From the IMG/VR virus record IMGVR_UViG_2713896905_000008: a stretch of DNA of 42,302 nt, one strand, 5' to 3'. The stretch comes from a virus (lineage: Duplodnaviria; Heunggongvirae; Uroviricota; Caudoviricetes). Below are positions 1,931 through 42,302 of the stretch, one piece after another. Both the position numbers and the translations under genes were made by a program. The notes under the pieces are model-generated. The model worked only from the letters and a program-made list of their open reading frames with translations, had not been told where the DNA came from and did no database searches. Position 1 is the stretch's first letter, and each line of letters starts with the position of its first letter.

Positions 1931-2182
1931 ATGGATTTTGCAACAATTACAAGTAGTGTTGTGTTGAGTGCATGTGTCGCAGGCCTGGCTTCGCTGATTA
2001 ATAGTGCCTGGCAGCGCAAATCAGAACGAAAAATTGAAGTAGAGCATCGGGCTGCAGAAACTCGGGCAAAAATCAGAGAAATGGCTCTTACCCTTGCATT
2101 GAAGGAATGGGAATCTCACCAGGCCGTATCGAAAGCTAAAGGCGGGACGGTCAGCGGCCCGGAAGTTTACGTATTTCGATAA
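1931..2182 (+). CDS. small membrane-anchored protein, unknown function
   Basis: 83-aa ORF with an N-terminal hydrophobic helix (ITSSVVLSACVAGLASLINSAW) followed by a charged helical region. Preceded by AAAGAAGG SD-like sequence. Confidence 0.3.
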   Translation: MDFATITSSVVLSACVAGLASLINSAWQRKSERKIEVEHRAAETRAKIREMALTLALKEWESHQAVSKAKGGTVSGPEVYVFR

Positions 2183-2633
2183 CTTCGTATGCTCAACTCG
2201 ATAGATTCATGATTGAGAATCTCAGACAGACTCAATACGACGCGATGTGCGCAGTCGCAGTGATTCAGGCAGAGATCGAGCGATATCGTGAGAAAAATGG
2301 GCTACTAATGCCATAACCACAGTCAGCGCTTGTCATCTTTCCAAATTCTCATATCAGACTTGCGCCCGATAAACCGACGAAAACTATTTAAAACCCATCG
2401 AGTGAAATAATCTCTAAAACCAAAGAGATACCAGGTGAAAATATTCACGATAAAATGCCCGGTCAGAGCCCCCGATACCGCATGCAAGAACAGTAAAAAA
2501 ATCATATGTGTTCATAAATATCAGCCCTCATCGTTTTGCCTGGCATATCCTTTACCGGCAATCTTCTGTATGCGCTAAGCCTGGATACCACATCACACTT
2601 GATTTAGATCTGTCACGGCGAACTGCCGTTCAA

Positions 2634-3134
2634 GATAAATGCGGGATGCTACTTGCTCTTGTTACTGGACAACGTTTAGGCGATATCTGCAATTTGAAAT
2701 TCTCTGATATCTGGGACGACATGTTGCACATTACTCAGGAAAAAACCGGTTCAAAACTTGCTATTCCGCTTAACCTGAAATGCGATGCTCTGAATATTAC
2801 CCTTCGTGAAGTTATATCTCAGTGCAGGGATGCTGTTGTTAGTAAATATCTGGTCCATTACCGTCACACAACCTCTCAAGCAAACAGAGGGGACCAGGTT
2901 TCTGCAAATACTCTGACAACGGCTTTTAAAAAGGCCAGGGAAAAATGTGGCATAAAATGGGAGCAAGGAACTGCGCCCACATTTCATGAGCAGCGATCTC
3001 TGTCAGAACGGTTATATCGGGAACAGGGTCTGGATACGCAAAAGTTGTTAGGTCATAAATCCAGAAAAATGACCGACCGATACAATGATGATCGTGGTAA
3101 AGACTGGGTTATCGTAGATATGAAAACAGCATAG
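2634..3134 (+). pseudogene. 5'-truncated tyrosine integrase (paralogue of the int at 41175-42302)
   Basis: Translation LLALVTGQRLGDICNLKFSDIWDD...HEQRSLSERLYREQGLDTQKLLGHKS...DRYNDDRGKDW aligns with the C-terminal ~165 aa of the full integrase at the window end. The N-terminal two-thirds are absent; the upstream ORF sequence is unrelated. Confidence 0.8.
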
Positions 3135-3144
3135 AAAATAGCCA

Positions 3145-3180
3145 GTTTTGGGGAAGGGTTTTGGGGAAAGTTTTGGGGAA
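3145..3180. repeat. three tandem copies of GTTTTGGGGAA between the truncated integrase and the icd terminator
   Basis: cagTTTTGGGGAAGGGTTTTGGGGAAAGTTTTGGGGAAga read directly. Confidence 0.7.
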
Positions 3181-3190
3181 GATTTTACAT

Positions 3191-3224
3191 CATCATAAAA
3201 CAACGGGCGTGTTATACGCCCGTT
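3191..3224 (-). terminator. intrinsic terminator following the icd 3' end
   Basis: Perfect stem AACGGGCG/CGCCCGTT with loop, followed on the minus strand by GTTTTAT. Lies about 20 nt past the icd-like stop. Confidence 0.6.
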
Positions 3225-3240
3225 TCAATATTTAACACAT

Positions 3241-3414
3241 GTAGTGATTACATATTCTTGATGATCGCGTCACCAAACTCTGAACATTTCAGCAGCTTAG
3301 CGCCTTCCATCAGACGTTCGAAGTCATAGGTTACGGTCTTCGCATTGATTGCGCCTTCCATACCTTTAACAATCAGGTCTGCGGCTTCAGTCCAGCCCAT
3401 ATGGCGCAGCATTA
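3241..3414 (-). pseudogene. icd: duplicated 3' end of isocitrate dehydrogenase gene (icdC-like att-site duplication)
   Basis: Minus-strand translation [54 protein letters not shown] is the Icd C-terminus. Homology stops abruptly at about 3414, where A+T-rich phage DNA begins. Confidence 0.85.
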
Positions 3415-3471
3415 GTTAGATAACTAAATCGTAACTATTTGACATAGCAGCATAATTTTACTAATTTGCAT

Positions 3472-3506
3472 ATAACTCATTAGCTCTTAGCATTTCCATA
3501 ACTCAT
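3472..3506. repeat. two direct copies of ATAACTCATT next to the att junction (candidate integrase arm-type sites)
   Basis: cATAACTCATTag at 3472 and cATAACTCATTga at 3497, within 100 bp of the icd/phage boundary. Confidence 0.35.
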
Positions 3507-3645
3507 TGATTATCAACATGTGTTTTTGAGTTTTGATAACCATTTTTAGCATAAAAATAGCAGTTAACATTTGCAGAAGTTAAGATCAGAGAAAATTTTT
3601 ACCCTGTAGGGTATTACGTCTTAAATGTGACTTTAATAAACAATT

Positions 3646-4479
3646 TTATTTCTGTAATCGATTTATATTAACGTAAAGCATCTCGATTAGTTCTTTTGCA
3701 TTTTTACTATAGTGCAATTCTCTATGGCAATTCGGACAAAGGGCAACACAGTTATCTGTTGTATCAGCACCACCTGAAGACAGGGGAATTACATGATGCA
3801 CTTCCAAGTATGGGCTTCCATCATTTAAATAAAACGGAGCATTTTTACCACAGTTTTCACATATACCTTTACTTTGCTGTAAAATCCAAGCTTTTACCAT
3901 CGGATCTCGGACATAAACTTTTTGTAGTCTTTCTACCTCAACTGGTTTCCTGGAGCCCTCGGGCTGACTCAACGTTTTCTTAATTAATTTACTAACCCTC
4001 ATATTCAGAAGCGATTCATCATCTGTAGGCTGAGAAAGCTCTGATAGTTCTCCACGTATTATAGACACCCAAAAACTGTCACTATAAATACCTGGAACAT
4101 TTATCAATATTCGTTTCGTTCTATTGCCGGAAGGAATTTCCTTTCTCCCCGTACGACTAAAATAAGCCTGATAACCACACATCTTCAAGCGTATATCGCG
4201 GGGGCTATTACCAATCAAAGTAAAATATTCACCAGGATGGATTTTTCTTTCATCCAAAGAATGCATATGTTTTCTGACTGATGATGACGCCAGATATACT
4301 ACGACTTGGGATACACCAGAATCAACCAACCGTTCAATGATATAATCAAGAGCGATATTGTAATCTTTGTTTCTGTCACCCGGCCCCCACGACTCAAGGA
4401 TTAGACCATAAACACCATCCTCTTCACCTATCAAACACTCAGCTTTCAGTTCAATTCCATTATTATCAAAAACATGCAT
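3646..4479 (-). CDS. mcrA: McrA, type IV 5-methylcytosine-specific restriction endonuclease (HNH)
   Basis: 277-aa translation matches E. coli McrA essentially end to end as I recall it (MHVFDNNGIELKAEC...CENCGKNAPFYLNDG...HHVIPLSSGGADTTDNCVALCPNCHRELH). Same position as in e14, next to pin. Confidence 0.9.
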   Translation of the reverse strand: MHVFDNNGIELKAECLIGEEDGVYGLILESWGPGDRNKDYNIALDYIIERLVDSGVSQVVVYLASSSVRKHMHSLDERKIHPGEYFTLIGNSPRDIRLKMCGYQAYFSRTGRKEIPSGNRTKRILINVPGIYSDSFWVSIIRGELSELSQPTDDESLLNMRVSKLIKKTLSQPEGSRKPVEVERLQKVYVRDPMVKAWILQQSKGICENCGKNAPFYLNDGSPYLEVHHVIPLSSGGADTTDNCVALCPNCHRELHYSKNAKELIEMLYVNINRLQK

Positions 4480-12347: not shown

Positions 12348-14183
12348 TTACCTGCCAAAGCGCGTATAGCCAACATCATGGCTGACATCAAAACCGCTGG
12401 ATCGCGTTTCCATAACCCGCATCCCCGGAGGCGAATTCACAAAAGAGACCTTGATCTCACCATCAACTTTTGGCGCAGAAGCTTTGTTAATCATGAAGGG
12501 ATTCGAGCCTGTGGCATCGGAGGCGTTGTTTGACTGAGCCGGATCCACCGCCGGATAAGGTGTGTATCCCCGCGCCGGTATTCCCGTCCCATAAGCATCA
12601 TAAGCACCCGCGCCCCACTGCGCAGAGTTAATGGCATCGACCGTGTCACCGGAACTGTCGGTAAACCACTCAATAATTGGCTTCAGCTTGTCCCACATAT
12701 CCTGAAACCACTTAACAACCGGTCCCCAGTTATTGATCACCATCCCCAGCGGCGACCAGGCAAAAACCTTCTTAAGAAGTTCCCAGCCAGTCTCAAAATA
12801 AGGACCAATGGTTTCCCAGAGTTTCTTAAAATAAGGTCCGACAACATCCCAGTTAGTGATAATTAATCCCGCAGCCAGGGCTATCGCCGTCGCAATCATG
12901 CCAATCGGCGTCATCGACATGATCCTGCTGACAATACTGATGGCACTGCCCACGCCCATCAATCCCAGTTTCAGAATCGCAAGACCGGCAGCAAGCCCGA
13001 CGACGCCGCGAATAACCCGGGGATTTTCATCCGCAAACTTCATGAATTTTTCCCCCAACTCCCCCAGCCATTGCGTGATATTTTTAGCGTCACCAGAAAA
13101 TGCGCCGCCAATAGCTGCAAGACCGTTAGTTGCGGTCCCCGTCATTGCCTCCCACAGGTTGGACAGCGTACCAAGCTGTGCCTGAACACGTTTATTCAGG
13201 CTGGCCTGTTTATTCATCTTCTGCTGGATCTGATCGTAACCATCCTTTCCTTTATCGATCAGGGCATTGACCACCTGAAGGGTTTCGGCATCATCACCAA
13301 ATATTGCCTTAAGTACACCTGTTCGCTTAACGTCGGTCAGTTTTCGCAGCTTTGCCAGTTGCTTAAACATGTTATCAAGACCGCCAAAACTCCCTTTGCT
13401 GTCAGTAAAATCGAGCTGCACCCCGAGTTTCTGGCGGGCCATGACTTTATTGACGTCCCTGATTTTCTTAACGCTTAATCCGGACTGGATAACTTTTCGC
13501 AGGGCATTACCTGCCGACTCCCCATTCATCCCCATCTGATCCATCATGACGCTGATAGGGGCAAGGCTCTGTGCAGCCTGAAGACCGTCCTTATTCACCA
13601 TCTTCAGAACAGAACTGGTTTTAGTGAAGAAGGACAACATGTTGGTATCGTCAACGCCCAGATAAAACGCCTTCTGGATAGTGTCGAACAGCCCCATCAT
13701 GTCTTCTGACGCCGTTCCGGTAGCATCCTGCATCTTTGCAGCAAACTCAGCAGCCGCTTCCGGTGTTTTTTTCAGTTGTACCGCAAGATAAGCTGTCGCT
13801 TTACCCACACCACCCAGAATGTTTTCTGCCGGGATCCCCTGACGCACCAGCATCTGCATCATGTTCTGGAAATCAGCCGTTGTACCGGGTAGCTGGTTAC
13901 CCAGACCAATAGCCAGTTTATTGATGTCCTGAAAGCTCTTTCCAACCTCGCCGTTCGCATCCATCATGGCGACTTTCAGCCCGGTGGCGGCGTTTTCCTG
14001 ATCGGCATAAGATTTCAGGGAAAGCGTCAGACCCGCTGCCAGTCCGCCACCAAGCGCCAGCCCACCCTGTGACGCTTCTTCCGCCTGGCGTTTAAATCCC
14101 CGGATTTTCTTTTGCATTTTCGACAGCGCGGGAGAAAGCCTGTCGACACCGGTGATCAACGCCTTAAGCTCAAATTCAGCCAT
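12348..14183 (-). CDS. tail tape measure protein
   Basis: 611 aa, Ala/Gly-rich helical with C-terminal hydrophobic segments. Follows the frameshifted chaperone. Confidence 0.8.
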   Translation of the reverse strand: MAEFELKALITGVDRLSPALSKMQKKIRGFKRQAEEASQGGLALGGGLAAGLTLSLKSYADQENAATGLKVAMMDANGEVGKSFQDINKLAIGLGNQLPGTTADFQNMMQMLVRQGIPAENILGGVGKATAYLAVQLKKTPEAAAEFAAKMQDATGTASEDMMGLFDTIQKAFYLGVDDTNMLSFFTKTSSVLKMVNKDGLQAAQSLAPISVMMDQMGMNGESAGNALRKVIQSGLSVKKIRDVNKVMARQKLGVQLDFTDSKGSFGGLDNMFKQLAKLRKLTDVKRTGVLKAIFGDDAETLQVVNALIDKGKDGYDQIQQKMNKQASLNKRVQAQLGTLSNLWEAMTGTATNGLAAIGGAFSGDAKNITQWLGELGEKFMKFADENPRVIRGVVGLAAGLAILKLGLMGVGSAISIVSRIMSMTPIGMIATAIALAAGLIITNWDVVGPYFKKLWETIGPYFETGWELLKKVFAWSPLGMVINNWGPVVKWFQDMWDKLKPIIEWFTDSSGDTVDAINSAQWGAGAYDAYGTGIPARGYTPYPAVDPAQSNNASDATGSNPFMINKASAPKVDGEIKVSFVNSPPGMRVMETRSSGFDVSHDVGYTRFGR

Positions 14184-14324
14184 GTGTGCGTTTCTCCTGC
14201 TCTATCCTGTTTGCCTGACTGACCAGCAAGGGAATTTCACTGATCGGCATATTCAGCAATTCGAAGGGATTAATGCGCCAGTAGCTGGCGCAGTCAAAGA
14301 AGCGATCAGTGAGGTATTCAGCCG

Positions 14325-14594
14325 TCAGGCCTGGAGGAAAAAACCGGCCACAAGCCACGCCGCTGCATTCAGGTCTGCCGGAGACATCTGGTCGACAGAG
14401 CTTTGCGGCACTTTCGCCAGCCGCACAATGTATTTCGACACCACATGCGCCAGAAGTCTGACGGACTCATCCTGATTCATCTGGTAGGGATACCCCAGCT
14501 CGCGGACATCCTTCCCGGTGGGTTCATCAAACTCCAGTACGGAGAGTGTCTCGCCATGAGCAATAATCGGTTTCTTTAACTCAAGCTCTTTCAT
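14325..14594 (-). CDS. tail assembly chaperone (upstream frame of a -1 frameshift pair)
   Basis: 89-aa ORF between tube and tape measure. The overlapping -1-frame ORF 14176-14358 continues to the tape measure start. Confidence 0.7.
   Translation of the reverse strand: MKELELKKPIIAHGETLSVLEFDEPTGKDVRELGYPYQMNQDESVRLLAHVVSKYIVRLAKVPQSSVDQMSPADLNAAAWLVAGFFLQA
14335..14341 (-). promoter_or_regulatory. slippery heptamer T TTT TTC for programmed -1 ribosomal frameshift
   Basis: Minus-strand GCC GGT TTT TTC CTC in the chaperone frame; the -1 frame is open downstream to 14176. Confidence 0.6.
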
Positions 14595-14950
14595 TACTGG
14601 TAATCCCCTTCTTCACCGTGGAACTCAAGATCAACCGTGCCTTCTTCGGCATTATGGTTCGCTTCGCCGTGCAGCCAGGCAGACGACAGTACATAGACCT
14701 GACCGTTCGCCAGCTCGGCAGTGATTGTCATCTCATCAGACGAGGTGATTTTGCTCACCGGAAAATTCTTCGGCACCTTGAAGGTCCCTTTGACATAAGG
14801 CGCACGGTGAGTTTCCTTGCGGTCCACTGAACCGTCCAGGCCGATGATGTCATCATTGACCGTCCTGTTCATGGGCACCTCAATGCCGCCGGTCAGCGAT
14901 AGCTGCTGACCGTCAATTTTGAAATAACAGGTTCCCCCGATACGGGCCAT
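14594..14950 (-). CDS. tail tube protein
   Basis: 118 aa immediately after the sheath gene; overlapping stop and start. Confidence 0.8.
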   Translation of the reverse strand: MARIGGTCYFKIDGQQLSLTGGIEVPMNRTVNDDIIGLDGSVDRKETHRAPYVKGTFKVPKNFPVSKITSSDEMTITAELANGQVYVLSSAWLHGEANHNAEEGTVDLEFHGEEGDYQ

Positions 14951-16446
14951 TATGCGGACTCCTCTGAATACTGAAGACGGAACTGGTTAACCACGGCAAA
15001 GACACGCAACTGGTTAACATAGTCAGGCGGGAACAGCGTGTTCAGGCGGTTCGGATCGCTGGCATCACGCTCCACAACCAGGTACTGCTTAAAAAGTTCG
15101 TAGTTTTCCACGATCCCCGCACGCTCAAGCTGACGGTAGGTTGCCAGCAGTTCCCCTTTGATCACCGCCGGGGTGACAATCGCCTGACCGGGACCAAAGC
15201 GGGTACCGTCGCTGGCAAGCTTGTGACGCCCGTACTTACTGGTAATGACGGATTTCAGTTTGCGCAGTACATACGCACTGGTATGCAGCGTCTCGCTGTC
15301 GAGGTAGCTGTTATCCGCAACCCCGTAAGCATTTTCCCTGTACGTGGTGACATCACGCTGAATGCGCAGCACCCCGCTTTCGACATACGCCGTTGCCACG
15401 CCATGAGACAGCAGGGTCTGCTGCTCGGTCATCGTGAACCGTTTCCCCTTCGGCGCAGGCAGCATACCCACCAGCTCACCGGTCTGCGTGGGACGTGCCG
15501 GATCGTTGCGGATAAACACCGCTGCGCGGGCGGTACGGCTTGCCGCCAGCTCGTCGGCAGGCGTCTGGGTCTCTTTTTCGTACCCCGCCAGGGTGATGTG
15601 CTGCTGGTTAAACTGGTCACCTGCGGTCACCAGTTCTGACAGCGTGCCGATCTTTGCCGTATACACATGACCATACAGCTGACGCGCATAGCTCCAGCGA
15701 CCGCTGGTATCGTTCATCTCGGTCACCAGCGTGTTAACGGAGGCCGTGTCGTTGAACGGCAGACCGATATAATCAAACGGCTCATCCGCCATTGCAGCCA
15801 CCGCACCGGTGAGAACCGGAGCGCCCGTTCCGGCGGTCCCCGTCGCCACGGCAATCTGTACGCCCGCTGGCAGCACTTCGCCCCCACCAAAGCCGTAGTA
15901 ATTGAGGCTGACAGGAATTTCATTCCCGCAAAGCCCCTTATGACGCGCGGTCAGTGTGACCACGCCTGCCGAAGATGAGGCCGTAAACGGCAGGGCCGGA
16001 ACGGCATTGATGGCATCCTGGATACTGCTGGCAATCGTCGTGACGTTATCGCCGTTGGTCACCGGTGCCTGCACGCGGGTACGTCCCACATAAACATTCA
16101 CCGTGCCGGTTTCGGTTGCTGCTCCGGTCACCGTCAGCGTAACCGTTGCCGCCGCGCCTGTGGCTTCCGGAACGGCAATCACATACAGCTCGCCAAACGG
16201 GTCGGTCTGGCGATAAGCCTCGACCATACGCGCCAGCTGACTTCCCGCACCACAAATCTGGCGTGCATAGTCTGCCGACGGCATCAGCACCAGACTGTTG
16301 GCAACAATCTCTGCACCGTTATTGGCGTGACCAATCAGCAGCGATGCTCCGCTGTCCTGTGCAGTATTCGCCGCCTGGTTATCCATTTCCGCATAAAACA
16401 GCGGAACCAGCGTATTCGACGGAATGGTGTTAAAGCTTATCGTCAT
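14950..16446 (-). CDS. contractile tail sheath protein
   Basis: 498 aa; largest protein upstream of the tube gene in the myovirus-type order. Confidence 0.85.
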   Translation of the reverse strand: MTISFNTIPSNTLVPLFYAEMDNQAANTAQDSGASLLIGHANNGAEIVANSLVLMPSADYARQICGAGSQLARMVEAYRQTDPFGELYVIAVPEATGAAATVTLTVTGAATETGTVNVYVGRTRVQAPVTNGDNVTTIASSIQDAINAVPALPFTASSSAGVVTLTARHKGLCGNEIPVSLNYYGFGGGEVLPAGVQIAVATGTAGTGAPVLTGAVAAMADEPFDYIGLPFNDTASVNTLVTEMNDTSGRWSYARQLYGHVYTAKIGTLSELVTAGDQFNQQHITLAGYEKETQTPADELAASRTARAAVFIRNDPARPTQTGELVGMLPAPKGKRFTMTEQQTLLSHGVATAYVESGVLRIQRDVTTYRENAYGVADNSYLDSETLHTSAYVLRKLKSVITSKYGRHKLASDGTRFGPGQAIVTPAVIKGELLATYRQLERAGIVENYELFKQYLVVERDASDPNRLNTLFPPDYVNQLRVFAVVNQFRLQYSEESA

Positions 16447-20536: not shown

Positions 20537-21719
20537 CGGAGGGTTTCGTGGTCATGTTCATCGGTGTGAGATAGACATCACCACCGGGACGCGGATTCAT
20601 ATCTTCCAGGTCGCGGCAGTCATTGGGAGAGTAAATTCCCCAGTTGATCCCGGTGGCGTAGGCTTCAAAACGGGACTTCATATCCCCGCGCAGTAACGCC
20701 CCGGCGTTAAATTTGGCGTAATAAACGCCCTGCTTACTTTTTCGTACCAGTCCGGTGTTGATCCGCTGTTCGATGCGGGTCAGATACGGCACCAGTGAAT
20801 AGTTGATAAATCCCAGCCCCAGCTCTTCGATATTGTTGAAGGTGGCTCGATCGGTGTTCTGCACCATGTGCAACGGCACCCGGAACAGACGACAGATTTC
20901 TTCAAGCTGAAACTTGCGGGTTTCCAGGAACTGGCTGTCCTCGGCGTTCAGCGCCATCGACTTCCAGTCCAGCCCCATCTCAAGGATCATCGGGCGGTGA
21001 GCATTGCCAAGCCCGGTGTGACGCTCCTCAAAATCTTTCTTCAGGCGCTCATAAGCCTGATCTGACAGCGTCTGCTCTGTACGCAACACACCCGACGTCA
21101 CCGCGCCATTGCTGAACAGTCTGGCCCCGTGCTCTTCGGTCGCTGCCGCCAGCGATATTGCCTCGCGGGCATAGGCGACGGGATTCAGTCCCACCAGACC
21201 GTCCAGCGTCAGCGTGCGCACATGCCAGATATCCTCCTGGCTCAGTACATCCGTGGAGCCGTCCGGGAATGTGACCTGATAGACCGGCTCCCAGCTACTG
21301 TTAAGCTTCGGTACCACACAGCCGGGATCGACGGGCAGCAGTTCAGCCACTTCGCCAAATGCTTTCACTTTGTAGGCGTAAAAGTTTCCCCGCAGGCACA
21401 GACAGGTGACCACCAGCTCCCAGAACTCCTGCGGCGTCATATAGCCATTGGGATGCGTGGAGATCAGCTTATGCAGACGCTCGCCGGTGGCTCTCTGTTT
21501 CAGGCTGCCGTTCAGGTGATACAGATTGCAGGGCAACATCCCGACCGACTCTGCCAGCACCCTGACGCAGGAAAAAACCGCCGTCAGTCGCATGGCCCGC
21601 TGGCTGCTGATCTGCTTTCCGGTATAGGTGTCGTAGGACAACCCGATAGCATCCGCCAGCTCTGCTGGCGTGGTCACCGGTGCGTCACTTTTTCGTTGAA
21701 ATAATCCCGAAAAGAACAC
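20478..21719 (-). CDS. portal protein
   Basis: 413 aa between terminase and protease, with an acidic C-terminus. Confidence 0.85.
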   Translation of the reverse strand: MFFSGLFQRKSDAPVTTPAELADAIGLSYDTYTGKQISSQRAMRLTAVFSCVRVLAESVGMLPCNLYHLNGSLKQRATGERLHKLISTHPNGYMTPQEFWELVVTCLCLRGNFYAYKVKAFGEVAELLPVDPGCVVPKLNSSWEPVYQVTFPDGSTDVLSQEDIWHVRTLTLDGLVGLNPVAYAREAISLAAATEEHGARLFSNGAVTSGVLRTEQTLSDQAYERLKKDFEERHTGLGNAHRPMILEMGLDWKSMALNAEDSQFLETRKFQLEEICRLFRVPLHMVQNTDRATFNNIEELGLGFINYSLVPYLTRIEQRINTGLVRKSKQGVYYAKFNAGALLRGDMKSRFEAYATGINWGIYSPNDCRDLEDMNPRPGGDVYLTPMNMTTKPSDGSKAGKQKDNANADETTS

Positions 21720-27406: not shown

Positions 27407-28582
27407 ATGGATATAACTTGTTTAGAATGTGGCAATGTTCTTGACGACCCAACTGTAGCTTGCGATAAATGCGGCGCCACGCCTCATGTTGTAGTGCTGG
27501 GCAAACAATCGTACTTTCCTATTGGTGCTGTAACAGCAAATCTTGAAAAAAATGATTCAAGAGCATTTGATTATCGATTAGGTGAAGTTTGGGATCTAAA
27601 AAATGAAGTCACATCTGAATTCATAACCAGAATTGAGAAAAAATTTAGCCGAAAAAACAAATTTCATAACTTCCTAGACTCAGATCACAACCCTTCATCC
27701 ATTCCTACGATCCTAAAAAAATACATTAATAAAAATAATGAATTCATTGATTTATCTAGAGCTATAATAGAGAAGCTTAAACATAATGCTAATAACGAAT
27801 CGAGAGTTGCCCAACTTCAGGGGGGGAGCGTTGTTTTCATCCACTATAAGTCTACCGAACCAGAGGATTTGGGAAAACTTCTAATCGTAATGGTTGATAA
27901 ACAAAGCGCCTATGACTTTGATTCGGATAAGTTGACCCCAACAAGATTAAATCCAATTAATACCGATGCCTTACGGCAGGCTGCGATGTTCGATTTAACT
28001 TTATTCGAAGCCAGTTATCCAGAAAACAAGGGTGACTCATATGTACATTTCTTGCAAGGTAAATCTAAAAGCGATTTTTTCAAAGACTCATTAGGTTGCC
28101 GACATGATTCGGACAATAAAAGAAGCATTCAGCAATTATTCAGTGCTATAGATATTTTTGCTAGTAAAAACTCACTCGGTCGTGTACTGCGTGATACTAT
28201 TGACAATGAAGTTAAATCCTTACTGGAAAAAAAATCAAAAGATAAATACGGAAATAAGTCCGTTAAGATAGAGGATATTTCAAAAATAATTGACTCATGC
28301 CTGACTGATTCACACAAATGTAAGGGAACGTTTGTCGATTTTGTTAATCTTAATGGTTTCCAGATTGATCCTCAATTTGAACCAACTCCTAAAGCAGCTG
28401 AAAGCGCGCTTACAATTGAAGTGGCAGATAACGACAATAATTTTAAGTTGAAAATAATGCGTGGAGCTATTGGAGACGAAAAGTCAAATAAGCCTGTAAT
28501 TCTCACTGACAACAAATGCGAAATTGTGATAAAATTGAGTCAGGCAAATTATGATGAACTCAAAAGATATAGAGACAGCTAA
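27407..28582 (+). CDS. zinc-ribbon protein with NdpA/YejK-like (NA37-type) region; first gene of a cargo pair
   Basis: 391 aa. N-terminal CLECGN...CDKCG four-Cys ribbon. Central region aligns by eye with YejK: GGSVVFIHY / GGFVLFCHY and YVHFLQGKSKSDFFKDSLG / [22 protein letters not shown]. A+T-rich. Confidence 0.6.
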   Translation: MDITCLECGNVLDDPTVACDKCGATPHVVVLGKQSYFPIGAVTANLEKNDSRAFDYRLGEVWDLKNEVTSEFITRIEKKFSRKNKFHNFLDSDHNPSSIPTILKKYINKNNEFIDLSRAIIEKLKHNANNESRVAQLQGGSVVFIHYKSTEPEDLGKLLIVMVDKQSAYDFDSDKLTPTRLNPINTDALRQAAMFDLTLFEASYPENKGDSYVHFLQGKSKSDFFKDSLGCRHDSDNKRSIQQLFSAIDIFASKNSLGRVLRDTIDNEVKSLLEKKSKDKYGNKSVKIEDISKIIDSCLTDSHKCKGTFVDFVNLNGFQIDPQFEPTPKAAESALTIEVADNDNNFKLKIMRGAIGDEKSNKPVILTDNKCEIVIKLSQANYDELKRYRDS

Positions 28583-28584
28583 TA

Positions 28585-29799
28585 ATGACAATTGCTGATG
28601 ACTTATCAAGATTAGCGCAGATTATTAACGGAGCCTCAAGCAGAGTTGAGGGCTACTACACTGTCATAAGTCTTGAAGAAAGCATTGTTATTGTAAATAG
28701 TTCTGAAATAATTAGACTGTTACAATCTATAGGTTATAAAAAGGCAACAAACTGCATCGAAAATAATGAAATTTGGCTAGATCGCCAAGCTTCATCTTGG
28801 GATGACGCTATAATTTATGAGAATGTTGAGTCTTTTTGGTCTAGAGTAAACACCCAAAACGCTCTTCCGAAAAATTATATCATCGGAACGCCGTTAATAC
28901 TCCCTACTTCTAAGAATGAAAGCATCGAAAAAATCCATATTTTCTTTATGTGGAAAGATATCCTTTCATTAATTGCTGATCATCATAACAGTGACTGCTC
29001 TGTCTTATTTTTCACCAATGAAGACAAAAGTTATACAGTCGAACTCACGCATTTTTTACAATATAGCGAGATTAATCGCTTATCGAACTCGTCTCTTAAA
29101 TATGAAATTATAAAGGAGCTTCTCGACACAATAAAAATCAATGATTTACACAAAAGCGAGCGCAAGCTCGTTATACGTTCAGCCATAAACGAAGTATTTA
29201 AAGCAAATGGTACATTCAATTTCTTTGACTTGCTTAACTCTACTGAACTCGTCAGAAAAAAATATGATGAACTATATGAGATTTACACAAAGAGGTTTTC
29301 TGTAAATAAAATTCTTAACGAACTCGATGAGAAAAATCTTGAGTTCACGAGTAAAATTAACGAATTCATATCATCTAATCAGACAAAAGCATTGACTATT
29401 CCCGGTGCATTAATAGCAGCTGGTGGCTTAGTGAAGGCTAATGAAACAACCGAAGCAATATTGATTATCGCAGGACTTTGGATGATAAAAAAAGTCAATT
29501 ACATTTCTATTGAGATATTCAATGAAACATTCGACAACTTACGTTCTCGAGTGGAGTCCGCTTTCGATAAGTATTTAAAGTTTGAAGAAAATAAAGAAAT
29601 CAAAGATAATGCAGATAGTATTAAGAGTAGCATTACAGGTTTGATTGATAAAGCTAAAAAAAGGATGAGAACTGTTAAATATCTCGCATCAGCCATGTTT
29701 TATGGAGGCCTTATTTACGTTGGATATAAACAGTTCCCAGTCTTTTTTGAAAAATCGGCAGTAAATCTATTTTATTTTTTATGCCATACTATAAGCTAA
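28585..29799 (+). CDS. protein with C-terminal two-helix membrane anchor; second gene of the cargo pair
   Basis: 404 aa, starts 2 nt after the upstream stop. Hydrophobic helices ALTIPGALIAAGGLV...AILIIAGLWMI and YLASAMFYGGLIYVGY. No enzymatic motif recognised. 3' end overlaps the Q gene stop convergently. Confidence 0.6.
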   Translation: MTIADDLSRLAQIINGASSRVEGYYTVISLEESIVIVNSSEIIRLLQSIGYKKATNCIENNEIWLDRQASSWDDAIIYENVESFWSRVNTQNALPKNYIIGTPLILPTSKNESIEKIHIFFMWKDILSLIADHHNSDCSVLFFTNEDKSYTVELTHFLQYSEINRLSNSSLKYEIIKELLDTIKINDLHKSERKLVIRSAINEVFKANGTFNFFDLLNSTELVRKKYDELYEIYTKRFSVNKILNELDEKNLEFTSKINEFISSNQTKALTIPGALIAAGGLVKANETTEAILIIAGLWMIKKVNYISIEIFNETFDNLRSRVESAFDKYLKFEENKEIKDNADSIKSSITGLIDKAKKRMRTVKYLASAMFYGGLIYVGYKQFPVFFEKSAVNLFYFLCHTIS

Positions 29800-40933: not shown

Positions 40934-41194
40934 ATGAGGTTATCAAAAATGCTTCAAATGCTGACACTTGAGGAATGGGCTGCGGAAAAATTTAGGAGTA
41001 ATCCTCCAAGTGTGTCCACATTGCGTCGTTATGCTAAGCAGAATTTATTTTGTCCACCAGCAATGAAACAAGGTCGACTCTGGCGAGTACGTGAGGACGC
41101 AGAGTTAGTTGGGGAATTAGTTACTCCTGTCATCAAGAAAAGTGATTCTATTATTCTACAAAGGATTTTAAGTAATGGCAGCCAGACCACGTAA
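40934..41194 (+). CDS. xis: excisionase (lambda Xis-like)
   Basis: 86 aa; LTLEEWAAEKF...STLRRYAKQNLFCPPAMKQGRLWRVREDAEL parallels lambda Xis; overlaps the int start. Confidence 0.75.
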   Translation: MRLSKMLQMLTLEEWAAEKFRSNPPSVSTLRRYAKQNLFCPPAMKQGRLWRVREDAELVGELVTPVIKKSDSIILQRILSNGSQTT

Positions 41195-42302
41195 AAATAA
41201 TGTCTCAGTCCCGAACTTGTATCCGCTCTATAGCAGAAAAGTAAATAAAGTCTATTGGCGATATAAGCATCCAGTGACCGGGAAGTTTCATTCTTTGGGC
41301 GCAAACGAAGCTGAAGCCATTGCTATTGCCACTGAGGCCAATACACGCCTGGCTGAGCAAAGAACCCGGCAGATTCTGGCTATCAGTGACAGGATCGCAA
41401 CCAGCAAAGGAAAAGCAATCACAACGTCAACCTGGTTAGATCGCTATCAAGCAATCCAGGATGACAGACTGAAAAGTGGCGATATAAAGCTCAACACCTA
41501 TAAACAGAAAGCCAAACCAGTATCCTTGCTCAGGGAACGAGCAGGAATGAAGTTAATTTCATCCGTTGATGTAAGGGATATAGCACAATTGCTTGACGAG
41601 TATATCACTGCTGGGCAACCGAGGATGGCGCAAGTAGTCCGCTCCGTTCTAATTGATGTATTCAAGGAGGCACAACACTATGGGGAGGTCCCTCCTGGCT
41701 ATAATCCAGCATTAGCGACCAAACAGCCCAGAAGAAAAATTACCCGACAACGGTTAAGCCTTGAAGAATGGCAAAAAATCTTTGATATCGCAGATGCCAG
41801 TCATCGTTATATGGGGAATGCCATGCTGTTAGCACTGGTTACCGGTCAGAGGTTAGGTGATATCTCGCGTATGAAATTTAGCGATATTTGGGATGATCAT
41901 CTCCATATCATTCAGGAAAAGACCGGGAGCAAAATCGCAATTCCTCTTTCTCTTCGTCTCAACGCGATTAACTGGAGTTTACGCGATGTAGTCGCTCGCT
42001 GCCGTGACTATGCAGTCAGCCCATACCTTGTACATTTTTTCCGTACTACTTCACAGGCTGAACGTGGCGCGCAGGTTAAATCCAATACATTGACCATGAA
42101 TTTCAGTAAAGCAAGGGATTTGGCAGGAATCGACTGGGGGGATGGATCGCCCGCAACATTCCATGAACAAAGATCTTTATCTGAACGTCTTTACAAACAA
42201 CAGGGGTTAGACACACAAAAACTACTTGGTCATAAATCACAACAACAAACCGATCGTTATCATGATGATCGAGGTAAAGGATGGAGCAAAGTAGCATTGT
42301 GA
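41175..42302 (+). CDS. int: tyrosine integrase (lambda Int family, e14 IntE-like)
   Basis: 375 aa, complete, with stop at the last three bases of the window. C-terminal catalytic region (HEQRSLSERLY, LLGHKS, DRYHDD). 3' end faces the window edge, where the att site is expected. Confidence 0.9.
   Translation: MAARPRKNNVSVPNLYPLYSRKVNKVYWRYKHPVTGKFHSLGANEAEAIAIATEANTRLAEQRTRQILAISDRIATSKGKAITTSTWLDRYQAIQDDRLKSGDIKLNTYKQKAKPVSLLRERAGMKLISSVDVRDIAQLLDEYITAGQPRMAQVVRSVLIDVFKEAQHYGEVPPGYNPALATKQPRRKITRQRLSLEEWQKIFDIADASHRYMGNAMLLALVTGQRLGDISRMKFSDIWDDHLHIIQEKTGSKIAIPLSLRLNAINWSLRDVVARCRDYAVSPYLVHFFRTTSQAERGAQVKSNTLTMNFSKARDLAGIDWGDGSPATFHEQRSLSERLYKQQGLDTQKLLGHKSQQQTDRYHDDRGKGWSKVAL

What the first reader, a model, noticed from the sequence alone, without database searches (positions are those of the whole stretch)
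14176..14594. Programmed -1 frameshift in the tail assembly chaperone
The heptamer T TTT TTC lies in the zero frame of the chaperone ORF just before its stop, and the -1 frame stays open to the tape measure start. This is the conserved chaperone arrangement of lambda G/GT and P2 E/E+E'.
Basis: partly seen in the sequence, partly recalled or inferred. Interest (0 to 1): 0.35.

Follow-up and report, generated by a model that had tools for sequence, protein, structure and literature searches.

The report
Tail chaperone -1 frameshift site
This is the usual programmed -1 frameshift that lets a phage make a short and a long tail-assembly chaperone from one gene, here in a common SfV/e14-like prophage of E. 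coli and Shigella; the site is real and conserved but ordinary.

Summary
On the minus strand an 89-codon tail assembly chaperone gene (14594..14325, Pfam PF10109) lies between the tail tube and tape measure genes. It carries T TTT TTC (14343..14337) in X_XXY_YYZ phase, three codons before its stop. The -1 frame runs 53 more codons to a TGA (14178..14176) that overlaps the tape measure ATG (14183..14181).

Comparison supplies the support, since the heptamer alone is common in the window.
- All 20 related genomic loci (38-100% protein identity, one betaproteobacterial) and 80 viral contigs keep GGTTTTTT[C/T] in the same phase.
- In all 20 genomic loci the -1 frame ends within a few bases of the tape measure start; in most it overlaps it.
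- The 141-nt "gap" evolves as coding sequence only in the -1 frame (pN/pS 0.25, against 1.45 and 1.23).
- Several relatives have no start codon in that frame, so it cannot be a separate gene.
- Phage P2's proven E/E+E' site (GGT TTT TTG) sits at the homologous Gly-Phe codons.

No conserved stimulatory RNA structure was found. Efficiency, and ribosomal versus transcriptional slippage, remain untested. None of the public records examined annotates the fusion. Verdict: a new, unannotated member of a well-known kind, of low interest.

The parts
14325..14594 (-). Zero-frame tail assembly chaperone gene (89 aa, gpE-like). Its ATG overlaps the tube gene stop as TAATG.
   Evidence: Pfam PF10109 Phage_TAC_7 E = 2.4e-15. 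PHROG 166 'tail protein' E = 4e-23.
14337..14343 (-). Slippery heptamer T TTT TTC in X_XXY_YYZ phase (last base of codon 84, then codons 85 and 86).
   Evidence: GGTTTTTT[C/T] is invariant in 20 related loci and 80 viral contigs. It is homologous in position to P2's GGT TTT TTG.
14176..14337 (-). -1 frame extension (E'-like): 53 codons, PPGLTAEYLTDRFFDCASYWRINPFELLNMPISEIPLLVSQANRIEQEKRTHG, then TGA at 14178..14176.
   Evidence: PHROG 32181 E = 6.6e-41. pN/pS is 0.25 in the -1 frame against 1.45 and 1.23 in the other frames. Pairwise differences by codon position are 599/368/1276.
14176..14594 (-). Span encoding the predicted frameshift fusion protein (139 aa, 15.8 kDa; residues 1-86 from frame 0, residues 87-139 from frame -1).
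12348..14183 (-). Tape measure protein gene (611 aa). Its ATG (14183..14181) overlaps the -1 frame stop as ATGGCTGA, and its AGGAG Shine-Dalgarno lies inside the extension.
   Evidence: Pfam PF10145 E = 3.5e-27. PHROG 28/17727 tape measure.
14594..14950 (-). Tail tube gene (118 aa), immediately upstream (context).
   Evidence: Pfam PF10618 E = 2.4e-33. PHROG 185.
14950..16446 (-). Tail sheath gene (498 aa), upstream (context).
   Evidence: Pfam PF04984, PF17482 and PF17481. PHROG 165.
14275..14291 (-). Local hairpin GCGCCAG-CUA-CUGGCGC inside the extension, 45 nt 3' of the heptamer. It is probably not part of the signal.
   Evidence: The stem is invariant in 13 closer relatives, is lost in 4 more distant ones that keep the slip site, and shows no covariation.

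Best explanation
The site is a programmed -1 ribosomal frameshift in the tail assembly chaperone gene of an SfV/e14-like myovirus prophage.

Most ribosomes translate the 89-aa chaperone and stop at TGA 14327..14325. In a minority, the two tRNA-Phe molecules on UUU (P site) and UUC (A site) slip back one base. They re-pair with UUU UUU, and decoding resumes at CCU CCA GGC. This adds a 53-residue C-terminal domain and gives a 139-aa fusion that ends at the tape measure start.

By analogy with lambda gpG/gpGT and P2 gpE/gpE+E', the short and long forms would both coat the tape measure protein. The extra domain of the rare long form would recruit the tube protein. Both would leave before the tail is finished.

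Shown here:
- the anatomy of the site;
- conservation of the slip site;
- protein-coding constraint on the -1 frame;
- absence of an independent start codon in several relatives;
- positional homology with the P2 site.

Inferred:
- that the shift is ribosomal;
- its efficiency;
- the roles of the two products.
For: Anatomy.

Identity and synteny: the gene order is sheath, tube, PF10109 chaperone, PF10145 tape measure. The region is 98% identical in DNA to phages SfV, SfII and SfI.

Conservation of the slip site:
- All 20 genomic loci at 38-100% protein identity, including Derxia gummosa, carry GGTTTTTT[C/T] in the same phase. In all of them the -1 frame stays open 41-49 codons past the zero-frame stop and ends within a few bases of the tape measure start, overlapping it in most. 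In most of them the +1 frame closes within a few codons.
- Among 12 ungapped loci, 75 of 83 third-codon positions in the chaperone body vary. None of the 9 slip-site bases varies.
- All 80 viral contigs have exactly T6 and an intact extension.

Coding constraint: in the 141-nt gap, pN/pS is 0.25 in the -1 frame, 1.45 in frame 0 and 1.23 in frame +1. The chaperone body gives 0.20.

No independent start: L014, L022 and L023 have no ATG, GTG or TTG anywhere in the -1 ORF. In L007-L011 the first one lies after the conserved FDCAxYWRINP motif.

Comparison with P2: the annotated -1 site is GGT TTT TTG at the homologous ...GF codons of a PF10109 protein. Six P2-like phages keep T TTT TTG or T TTT TTT there.

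Motif competence: U_UU.U_UU.C is a frameshift-competent motif in E. coli. It gave 0.12% alone, 0.9% with the IS911 stimulator and 7.6% with the IS3 pseudoknot (PMC4066793).

Generality: G/GT-type frameshifting is widely conserved in long-tailed phages (PMC5009743; PMC3091744).
Against: - No protein or RNA data exist for this phage in anything I could search.
- The bare heptamer is weak in a reporter (0.12%), and no conserved stimulator was found. The yield is therefore unknown.
- The extension does not reach Pfam's P2 E' model PF06528. Profile comparison with P2-like E' domains is only suggestive (P = 0.004-0.005).
- A one-base insertion by RNA polymerase in the U run would give an identical protein, so sequence alone cannot separate the two mechanisms.
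Confidence: 0.85

Rival explanations
1. The same fusion protein is made by transcriptional slippage. RNA polymerase adds one extra U in the U6 run, giving GGU UUU UUU CCU CCA, so a fraction of mRNAs encode the long form directly and ribosomes do not shift.
For: The predicted protein (…GFFPPGL…) is identical to the ribosomal -1 product, as the sequence shows directly. Homopolymeric U and A runs are known slippage sites, and UUUUUUU is under-represented in all frames in E. coli genes, possibly for this reason (PMC4066793). Two relatives (L018, L019) have T7.
Against: - The run is only six bases long in 18 of 20 diverged loci and in all 80 viral contigs. From general knowledge, efficient slippage usually needs longer runs.
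- The phase of the run relative to the zero frame is strictly conserved as X_XXY_YYZ. This matters for tRNA re-pairing but not for polymerase slippage.
- The homologous P2 site is accepted as translational (record annotation; PMC3091744).
Confidence: 0.07
2. The downstream ORF is an independent small gene. The 60-codon ORF 14358..14176 would start at GTG 14358, as annotated ('hypothetical protein') in phage vB_EcoM-689R6.
For: the ORF listing reports a 60-aa GTG ORF at 14176..14358. ON470584 annotates the equivalent ORF as a separate CDS. PHROG 32181 is built from such calls.
Against: - The GTG is not conserved.
- In L014, L022 and L023 the -1 ORF contains no ATG, GTG or TTG at all.
- In L007-L011 the first candidate start lies about 90 nt past the slip site, after the most conserved motif.
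- In several loci the -1 frame opens only 13-28 nt upstream of GGT.
- No Shine-Dalgarno sequence precedes the GTG (one search shows ACCTGAATGCAGCGGC).
Confidence: 0.03
3. There is no recoding. The heptamer and the open -1 frame are coincidental and the 141-nt gap is a non-coding spacer, as RefSeq, SfV and SfII annotations imply. A variant of this view is that the weak hairpin plus T-run acts as a transcription attenuator ahead of the tape measure gene.
For: None of the SfV or E. coli RefSeq records I opened annotates a fusion. TTTTTTY is frequent in the window (53 copies). A 53-codon open frame has roughly an 8% chance probability (my estimate, (61/64)^53). A terminator-like pattern, TGGCTTGTGGCCG followed by GTTTTTTCCT, was flagged at 14357..14345.
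Against: - The gap evolves as coding sequence in the -1 frame only.
- The peptide motif FDCAxYWRINP…QANRI is conserved down to 38% chaperone identity.
- The slip nonamer is invariant.
- The terminator-like hit is no more than shuffles give (1 found, 0.9 expected), and its stem is not conserved in relatives.
Confidence: 0.03

Closest known systems
Phage P2 gpE / gpE+E' (-1 frameshift at T TTT TTG in the FETUD tail operon; Christie et al. 2002, cited in PMC3091744)
   Same: - The N-terminal Pfam family is the same: PF10109, window 2.4e-15 and P2 gpE 1.5e-12.
- The gene sits in the same position, between the tube and tape measure genes.
- The slip site is at the homologous ...(A/V)GF(F/L) codons, with GGT TTT TT shared.
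- The product sizes match: 89/139 aa here, 91/142 aa in P2.
- The extension ends at or overlaps the tape measure start.
- Neither family has a conserved downstream structure.
   Different: - The last base of the heptamer is C (TTC, Phe), not G (TTG, Leu).
- The extension does not match Pfam PF06528. It is only weakly similar by profile comparison (P about 0.005).
- The full-length proteins are not significantly similar by BLASTP (E = 0.65).
- The tube (Pfam PF10618) and the Mu N/P-like baseplate genes around it are of the Mu type rather than P2 FI/FII.
Phage lambda gpG / gpGT (-1 frameshift at G GGA AAG; Levin et al. 1993; Xu et al. 2004, 2013, 2014)
   Same: The logic is the same: a chaperone gene before the tape measure gene, a low-level -1 shift near its 3' end, and a long form carrying an extra domain. 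Both are thought to bind the tape measure, and neither is present in virions (PMC5009743).
   Different: The heptamer differs and the virus is a siphovirus. No sequence comparison was made here, so this is analogy only.
Phage Mu gp41 (Pfam PF23746), reported to use a -2 frameshift (Xu et al. 2004; PMC5009743)
   Same: The tail module around it is of the same type: sheath, tube, DUF2635, and DNA-circulation and baseplate genes annotated as similar to Mu L, gp38, N and P. The chaperone is in the same position.
   Different: - Mu gp41 belongs to PF23746 and only grazes PF10109 (24.7 bits against a cut-off of 25).
- Its extension lies in the +1/-2 frame and it has no T run.
- In the window the +1 frame closes after 2 codons.
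U_UU.U_UU.C frameshift motif of bacterial IS elements (Sharma et al. 2014, PMC4066793)
   Same: The heptamer is identical and the host translation machinery is the same. The motif has measured -1 frameshifting in E. coli.
   Different: IS elements pair the motif with a downstream hairpin or pseudoknot or an upstream SD. No such conserved element was found here.

Membership tests
G/GT-type tail assembly chaperone frameshift (Xu, Hendrix & Duda 2004) | The gene pair lies between the major tail or tube gene and the tape measure gene. | tested here: met
   The order is tube 14950..14594, chaperone 14594..14325, tape measure 14183..12348, all on the minus strand.
G/GT-type tail assembly chaperone frameshift (Xu, Hendrix & Duda 2004) | A second ORF overlaps the 3' end of the first in another frame and has no start of its own. 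| tested here: met
   The -1 ORF overlaps the last codons of the chaperone. Three relatives have no start codon in it, and five others have none upstream of the conserved motif.
G/GT-type tail assembly chaperone frameshift (Xu, Hendrix & Duda 2004) | A slippery sequence lies in the correct phase inside the overlap. | tested here: met
   T TTT TTC at 14343..14337 is in X_XXY_YYZ phase. In some relatives it lies within a shift window of about 40 nt.
G/GT-type tail assembly chaperone frameshift (Xu, Hendrix & Duda 2004) | The slip site and both reading frames are conserved among relatives. | tested here: met
   20 of 20 genomic loci and 80 of 80 viral contigs keep the site. pN/pS is 0.25 in the -1 frame only.
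G/GT-type tail assembly chaperone frameshift (Xu, Hendrix & Duda 2004) | Two products are made in a fixed ratio, both are required for tail assembly, and neither is in the virion. | not testable with these tools
   This needs a reporter assay, mass spectrometry and genetics.
P2 gpE / gpE+E' family | The N-terminal domain belongs to Pfam PF10109 (Phage_TAC_7). | tested here: met
   E = 2.4e-15, 56.7 bits against a cut-off of 25. P2 gpE gives 1.5e-12.
P2 gpE / gpE+E' family | The -1 slip is on a T-run at the conserved Gly-Phe codons near the C-terminus. | tested here: met
   The window has GCC GGT TTT TTC, P2 has GTC GGT TTT TTG, and six P2-like phages have xxT TTT TT[G/T]. The Z base differs: C here, G in P2.
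P2 gpE / gpE+E' family | The extension belongs to Pfam PF06528 (Phage_P2_GpE, the E' domain). | tested here: not met
   None of 13 family members scores at E up to 10, whereas P2 E' scores 2.1e-22. hhalign of the two extension families gives P = 0.004-0.005 over 32 co-linear columns, which is suggestive only.
Mu gp41 type (-2 frameshift) | The chaperone belongs to Pfam PF23746 (Gp41_Mu). | tested here: not met
   The Pfam scan of the window protein returned only PF10109 at E up to 0.01. Mu gp41 gives PF23746 at 9.1e-35.
Mu gp41 type (-2 frameshift) | The extension is encoded in the +1/-2 frame. | tested here: not met
   In the window the +1 frame closes 2 codons after the zero-frame stop and the -1 frame runs 49 codons past it. 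In Mu the reverse holds.

The most novel reading that the evidence does not exclude
In an E. coli reporter the bare U_UUU_UUC heptamer shifts only about 0.1% of ribosomes. P2's U_UUU_UUG is equally weak there, yet P2 is reported to shift more often than lambda's roughly 1-in-30. These gpE-type sites may therefore depend on a stimulator that has not been recognised. One candidate is the nucleotide-invariant hairpin 45 nt downstream (14291..14275), together with the 10-bp long-range stem around it (14312..14303 with 14246..14237). Others are a nascent-peptide or trans-acting effect. Any of these would be an unusual distal or non-RNA-structure stimulator of -1 frameshifting in bacteria.
Probability: 0.1. 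Interest if true: 0.45.

Novelty: new member of a known kind. Interest (0 to 1): 0.15.

Why it matters
The main value is for annotation. The same 471-nt region is present in 919 of 5,426 complete E. coli genomes and in the Shigella serotype-converting phages SfV, SfII and SfI. The records I opened either leave the 141-nt extension blank or call it a separate hypothetical gene. Marking it as a -1 frameshift product would correct the gene model of a very common prophage family.

It also shows that a Mu-like contractile tail module can carry a P2-type chaperone and slip site, rather than Mu's own -2 arrangement. That is a small example of mosaicism within tail modules. It does not open a new biological question.

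Tried and rejected
1. A conserved stimulatory RNA structure.
- RNAalifold on 17 loci finds only 6 pairs and no covariation.
- The window's own fold is more stable than shuffles (z = -4.4). However, its outer stem pairs in only 62% of cells across relatives, and its covariation score is within the range of the slid controls.
- The best hairpin position differs between relatives and between P2-like phages.

2. An upstream SD-like stimulator. None is visible in GCGGCGTGGCTTGTGGCC.

3. A known RNA family. Rfam gives nothing relevant in 13900..14800.

4. Database proteins that look like direct fusions (P0001-P0006). These come from single low-coverage contigs with other indels and are assembly errors, not natural fused genes.

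5. Homology of the extension to P2 E'. Pfam is negative and hhalign is weak.

6. Solved structures. Neither domain has a sequence relative in the PDB.

7. NCBIfam. There is no model for either part.

8. Literature on this particular phage family's frameshift. Full-text searches found nothing. Christie 2002 and Allison 2002 are not held, and Xu et al. 2004 appeared only as a citation and was not read, so I cannot say whether its survey already listed SfV.

9. The other two GGTTTTTTC copies (2739..2747 and 21571..21579). By my reading of the coordinates, the second is out of phase in the portal gene and the first is not in any minus-strand ORF of at least 110 aa. Neither appears among the in-phase heptamers.

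10. Structure prediction was not run.
Full report
**What the window is**

Region 12348..16446 is 98% identical in DNA to the Shigella flexneri serotype-converting phages SfII, SfI and SfV and to several E. coli phages. The 471 bases around the finding occur in 919 of 5,426 complete E. coli genomes. In E. coli H22 the identical segment sits in a prophage. That prophage carries e14-type genes (ymfK, ymfT, ymfL, ymfR, ymfQ) and ends next to a truncated isocitrate/isopropylmalate dehydrogenase-family gene fragment, presumably icd. The window also encodes a McrA-type restriction enzyme and a lambda-type integrase. It is therefore an SfV/e14-like temperate myovirus.

**The observation**

All late genes here are on the minus strand.
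- The sheath gene (14950..16446) matches Pfam PF04984, PF17482 and PF17481.
- The tube gene (14594..14950) matches PF10618.
- An 89-codon ORF (14325..14594) matches PF10109, "Phage tail assembly chaperone proteins, E, or 41 or 14", at E = 2.4e-15.
- After a 141-nt stretch with no zero-frame gene comes the 611-aa tape measure gene (12348..14183, PF10145).

The chaperone ends ...GCC GGT TTT TTC CTC CAG GCC TGA. The heptamer T TTT TTC (14343..14337) is thus in X_XXY_YYZ phase, three codons before the stop. Re-reading C14337 gives CCT CCA GGC CTG ... for 53 codons. The frame stops at TGA 14178..14176, which lies inside ATGGCTGA, the tape measure start. The stated range 14176..14594 is exactly the span of the predicted fusion: 139 aa, 15.8 kDa, against 89 aa, 9.9 kDa.

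**Is it more than chance?**

The heptamer alone is not informative. The window has 53 TTTTTTY and 3 GGTTTTTTC. Context and comparison are informative.
- Of 92 in-phase X_XXY_YYZ heptamers in ORFs of at least 80 aa, nine have a -1 frame that continues at least 20 codons past the zero-frame stop. The other eight lie in small ORFs that mostly overlap the long structural genes on the opposite strand. This site alone lies three codons before the stop of a gene with a family match.
- A scan of one genome per species gave 20 loci with 38-100% chaperone identity, from Shigella to the betaproteobacterium Derxia gummosa.
- All 20 carry GGTTTTTT[C/T] in the same phase.
- In all 20 the -1 frame stays open 41-49 codons beyond the zero-frame stop and ends within a few bases of the tape measure start, overlapping it in most. 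In most of them the +1 frame closes within a few codons.
- In 12 ungapped loci, 75 of 83 third-codon positions in the chaperone body vary. For example, the Ala codon just before the site is GCC, GCT, GCG or GCA. None of the nine slip-site bases varies.
- All 80 viral contigs have exactly six T's and an intact extension.

**The gap is coding, in the -1 frame, and not a separate gene**

Pairwise differences in the extension fall 599/368/1276 on codon positions 1/2/3 of the -1 frame. The chaperone body gives 899/539/2772. A Nei-Gojobori estimate gives pN/pS 0.25 in the -1 frame, against 1.45 in frame 0 and 1.23 in frame +1. The chaperone body gives 0.20.

The peptide keeps a motif, F-D-C-A-x-Y-W-R-I-N-P-x-E-L-L ... 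Q-A-N-R-I, down to the most distant relatives.

One phage record calls this ORF a separate hypothetical gene starting at a GTG. That start is not conserved.
- Three relatives have no ATG, GTG or TTG anywhere in the -1 ORF.
- Five others have none upstream of the conserved motif.
- In several the -1 frame opens only 13-28 nt before the heptamer.

The extension can therefore only be reached from the chaperone frame, within a window of about 40 nt that contains the heptamer.

**Mechanism**

E. coli reads UUU and UUC with the same tRNA-Phe (established knowledge). After a one-base backward slip, both the P-site and the A-site tRNA face UUU, so pairing is kept.

U_UU.U_UU.C belongs to the efficient H_HH.U_UU.Y class in E. 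coli and is used by IS elements. In a reporter it gave 0.12% alone, 0.9% with the IS911 stimulator and 7.6% with the IS3 pseudoknot (PMC4066793).

I found no conserved stimulator.
- The alignment fold has six pairs and no covariation.
- The window's own fold is unusually stable (z = -4.4). It has a 10-bp stem (14312..14303 with 14246..14237) around a hairpin (14291..14275).
- The outer stem pairs in only 62% of cells across relatives and is no better than slid controls. The inner hairpin is invariant in close relatives, lost in four distant ones that keep the slip site, and never shows a compensatory change.
- Both elements start 24-45 nt from the heptamer, which is too far for a classical stimulator.

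The absence of a stimulator matches P2 and its relatives (PMC3091744).

A one-base insertion by RNA polymerase in the U run would give the identical protein. This cannot be excluded from sequence. However, the strict conservation of phase and the short run favour the ribosomal route.

The functional model follows lambda. Both forms bind the tape measure, and the extra domain of the rare long form recruits the tube protein (PMC5009743). For this phage that model is inference.

**Comparison with known systems**

The closest relative is P2 gpE/gpE+E'.
- P2 gpE is also PF10109.
- Its annotated -1 site is GTC GGT TTT TTG at the homologous ...VGFL codons.
- Six other P2-like phages keep T TTT TTG or T TTT TTT there.
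- Product sizes (91/142 aa) and the ending at the tape measure start match.

There are three differences from P2.
- The last base is C rather than G.
- The extension does not reach Pfam's E' model PF06528 and is only weakly similar by profile comparison (P about 0.005 over 32 co-linear columns).
- The surrounding sheath, tube and baseplate genes are Mu-like.

Mu itself is different. Its gp41 is PF23746, and its extension lies in the +1/-2 frame, in line with the reported -2 shift (PMC5009743). This tail module is therefore Mu-like but carries a P2-type chaperone and slip site.

**Annotation status and novelty**

Neither SfV record (RefSeq and GenBank) nor the RefSeq annotation of E. coli H22 joins the two frames. 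One phage record lists the extension as a separate ORF. The feature names returned for the SfII and SfI records show no joined product either.

Database proteins that look like direct fusions are indel-ridden low-coverage contigs.

I found no paper in the searchable library that reports this site. Christie 2002 and Allison 2002 are not held, and Xu et al. 2004 was seen only as a citation, so I cannot rule out that SfV was already in its survey.

The phenomenon is textbook. This is an unannotated member of a known kind.

**Verdict**

My confidence that a -1 recoding event at this heptamer makes a functional long chaperone is about 0.85-0.9. Interest is low, at 0.15.

The only mildly open point is what sets the frameshift efficiency, given how weak the bare heptamer is in reporters.

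Noticed in passing
window 14275..14291 (-), with 14303..14312 and 14237..14246 (-): A perfect 7-bp hairpin, GCGCCAG-CUA-CUGGCGC, lies inside the -1 extension and is enclosed by a 10-bp inverted repeat. The local fold has z = -4.4. The hairpin stem's synonymous sites are invariant in 13 relatives while the loop varies. The hairpin is lost in 4 distant relatives and shows no covariation.
   Followed up: yes
window 14345..14357 (-): A weak terminator-like pattern (a 5-pair stem, then G plus the T6 run) lies immediately 5' of and including the slippery run. It is no more than shuffles give, and the stem is not conserved in relatives.
   Followed up: partly
window 14329..14337 (-): The first three codons read after the shift are Pro-Pro-Gly (CCU CCA GGC). 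From general knowledge this is a motif that stalls ribosomes without EF-P. It is not conserved: relatives have PAG, PQG, PSG, PRD or SGL.
   Followed up: partly
window 3646..4479 (-): A 277-aa HNH protein matches the PADLOC type IV methyl-directed restriction enzyme model end to end (E = 1.9e-200). From general knowledge, McrA of the E. coli e14 prophage has this length. It is a prophage-borne defence gene.
   Followed up: partly
window 27407..29799 (+): A two-gene block lies on the opposite strand to the late genes and is rich in A/T homopolymer runs. It encodes a 391-aa NA37-like nucleoid-associated protein and a 404-aa protein with no Pfam or PADLOC match. It may be a moron or cargo insert.
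   Followed up: partly
window 41175..42302 (+) and 2508..3134 (+): A lambda-type integrase with an Arm DNA-binding domain sits at the right edge of the window. A second, 208-aa tyrosine-recombinase-family ORF lies near the left end.
   Followed up: no
L104 (phage Mu NC_000929) 3053..3640: The ORF following Mu gp41 lies in the +1/-2 frame. It carries a W...P...F pattern loosely like the E' domains. Mu gp41 now has its own Pfam family, PF23746, and only grazes PF10109.
   Followed up: partly
L018/L019 (uncultured proteobacterium MAGs), about 2740..2770: These relatives have T7 (GGTTTTTTT) instead of T6C. A strong 8-bp GC hairpin (dG -15 kcal/mol) starts 2 nt after the heptamer. This is a possible lineage-specific stimulator.
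   Followed up: no
L106 (P2 NC_001895) 2179..2186: The RefSeq record places the P2 frameshift one base after the TTTTTTG heptamer. If the join re-reads that base, it would imply ...GFLF AEL rather than the ...GFLV AEL expected from tandem tRNA slippage. This is a small annotation inconsistency.
   Followed up: no
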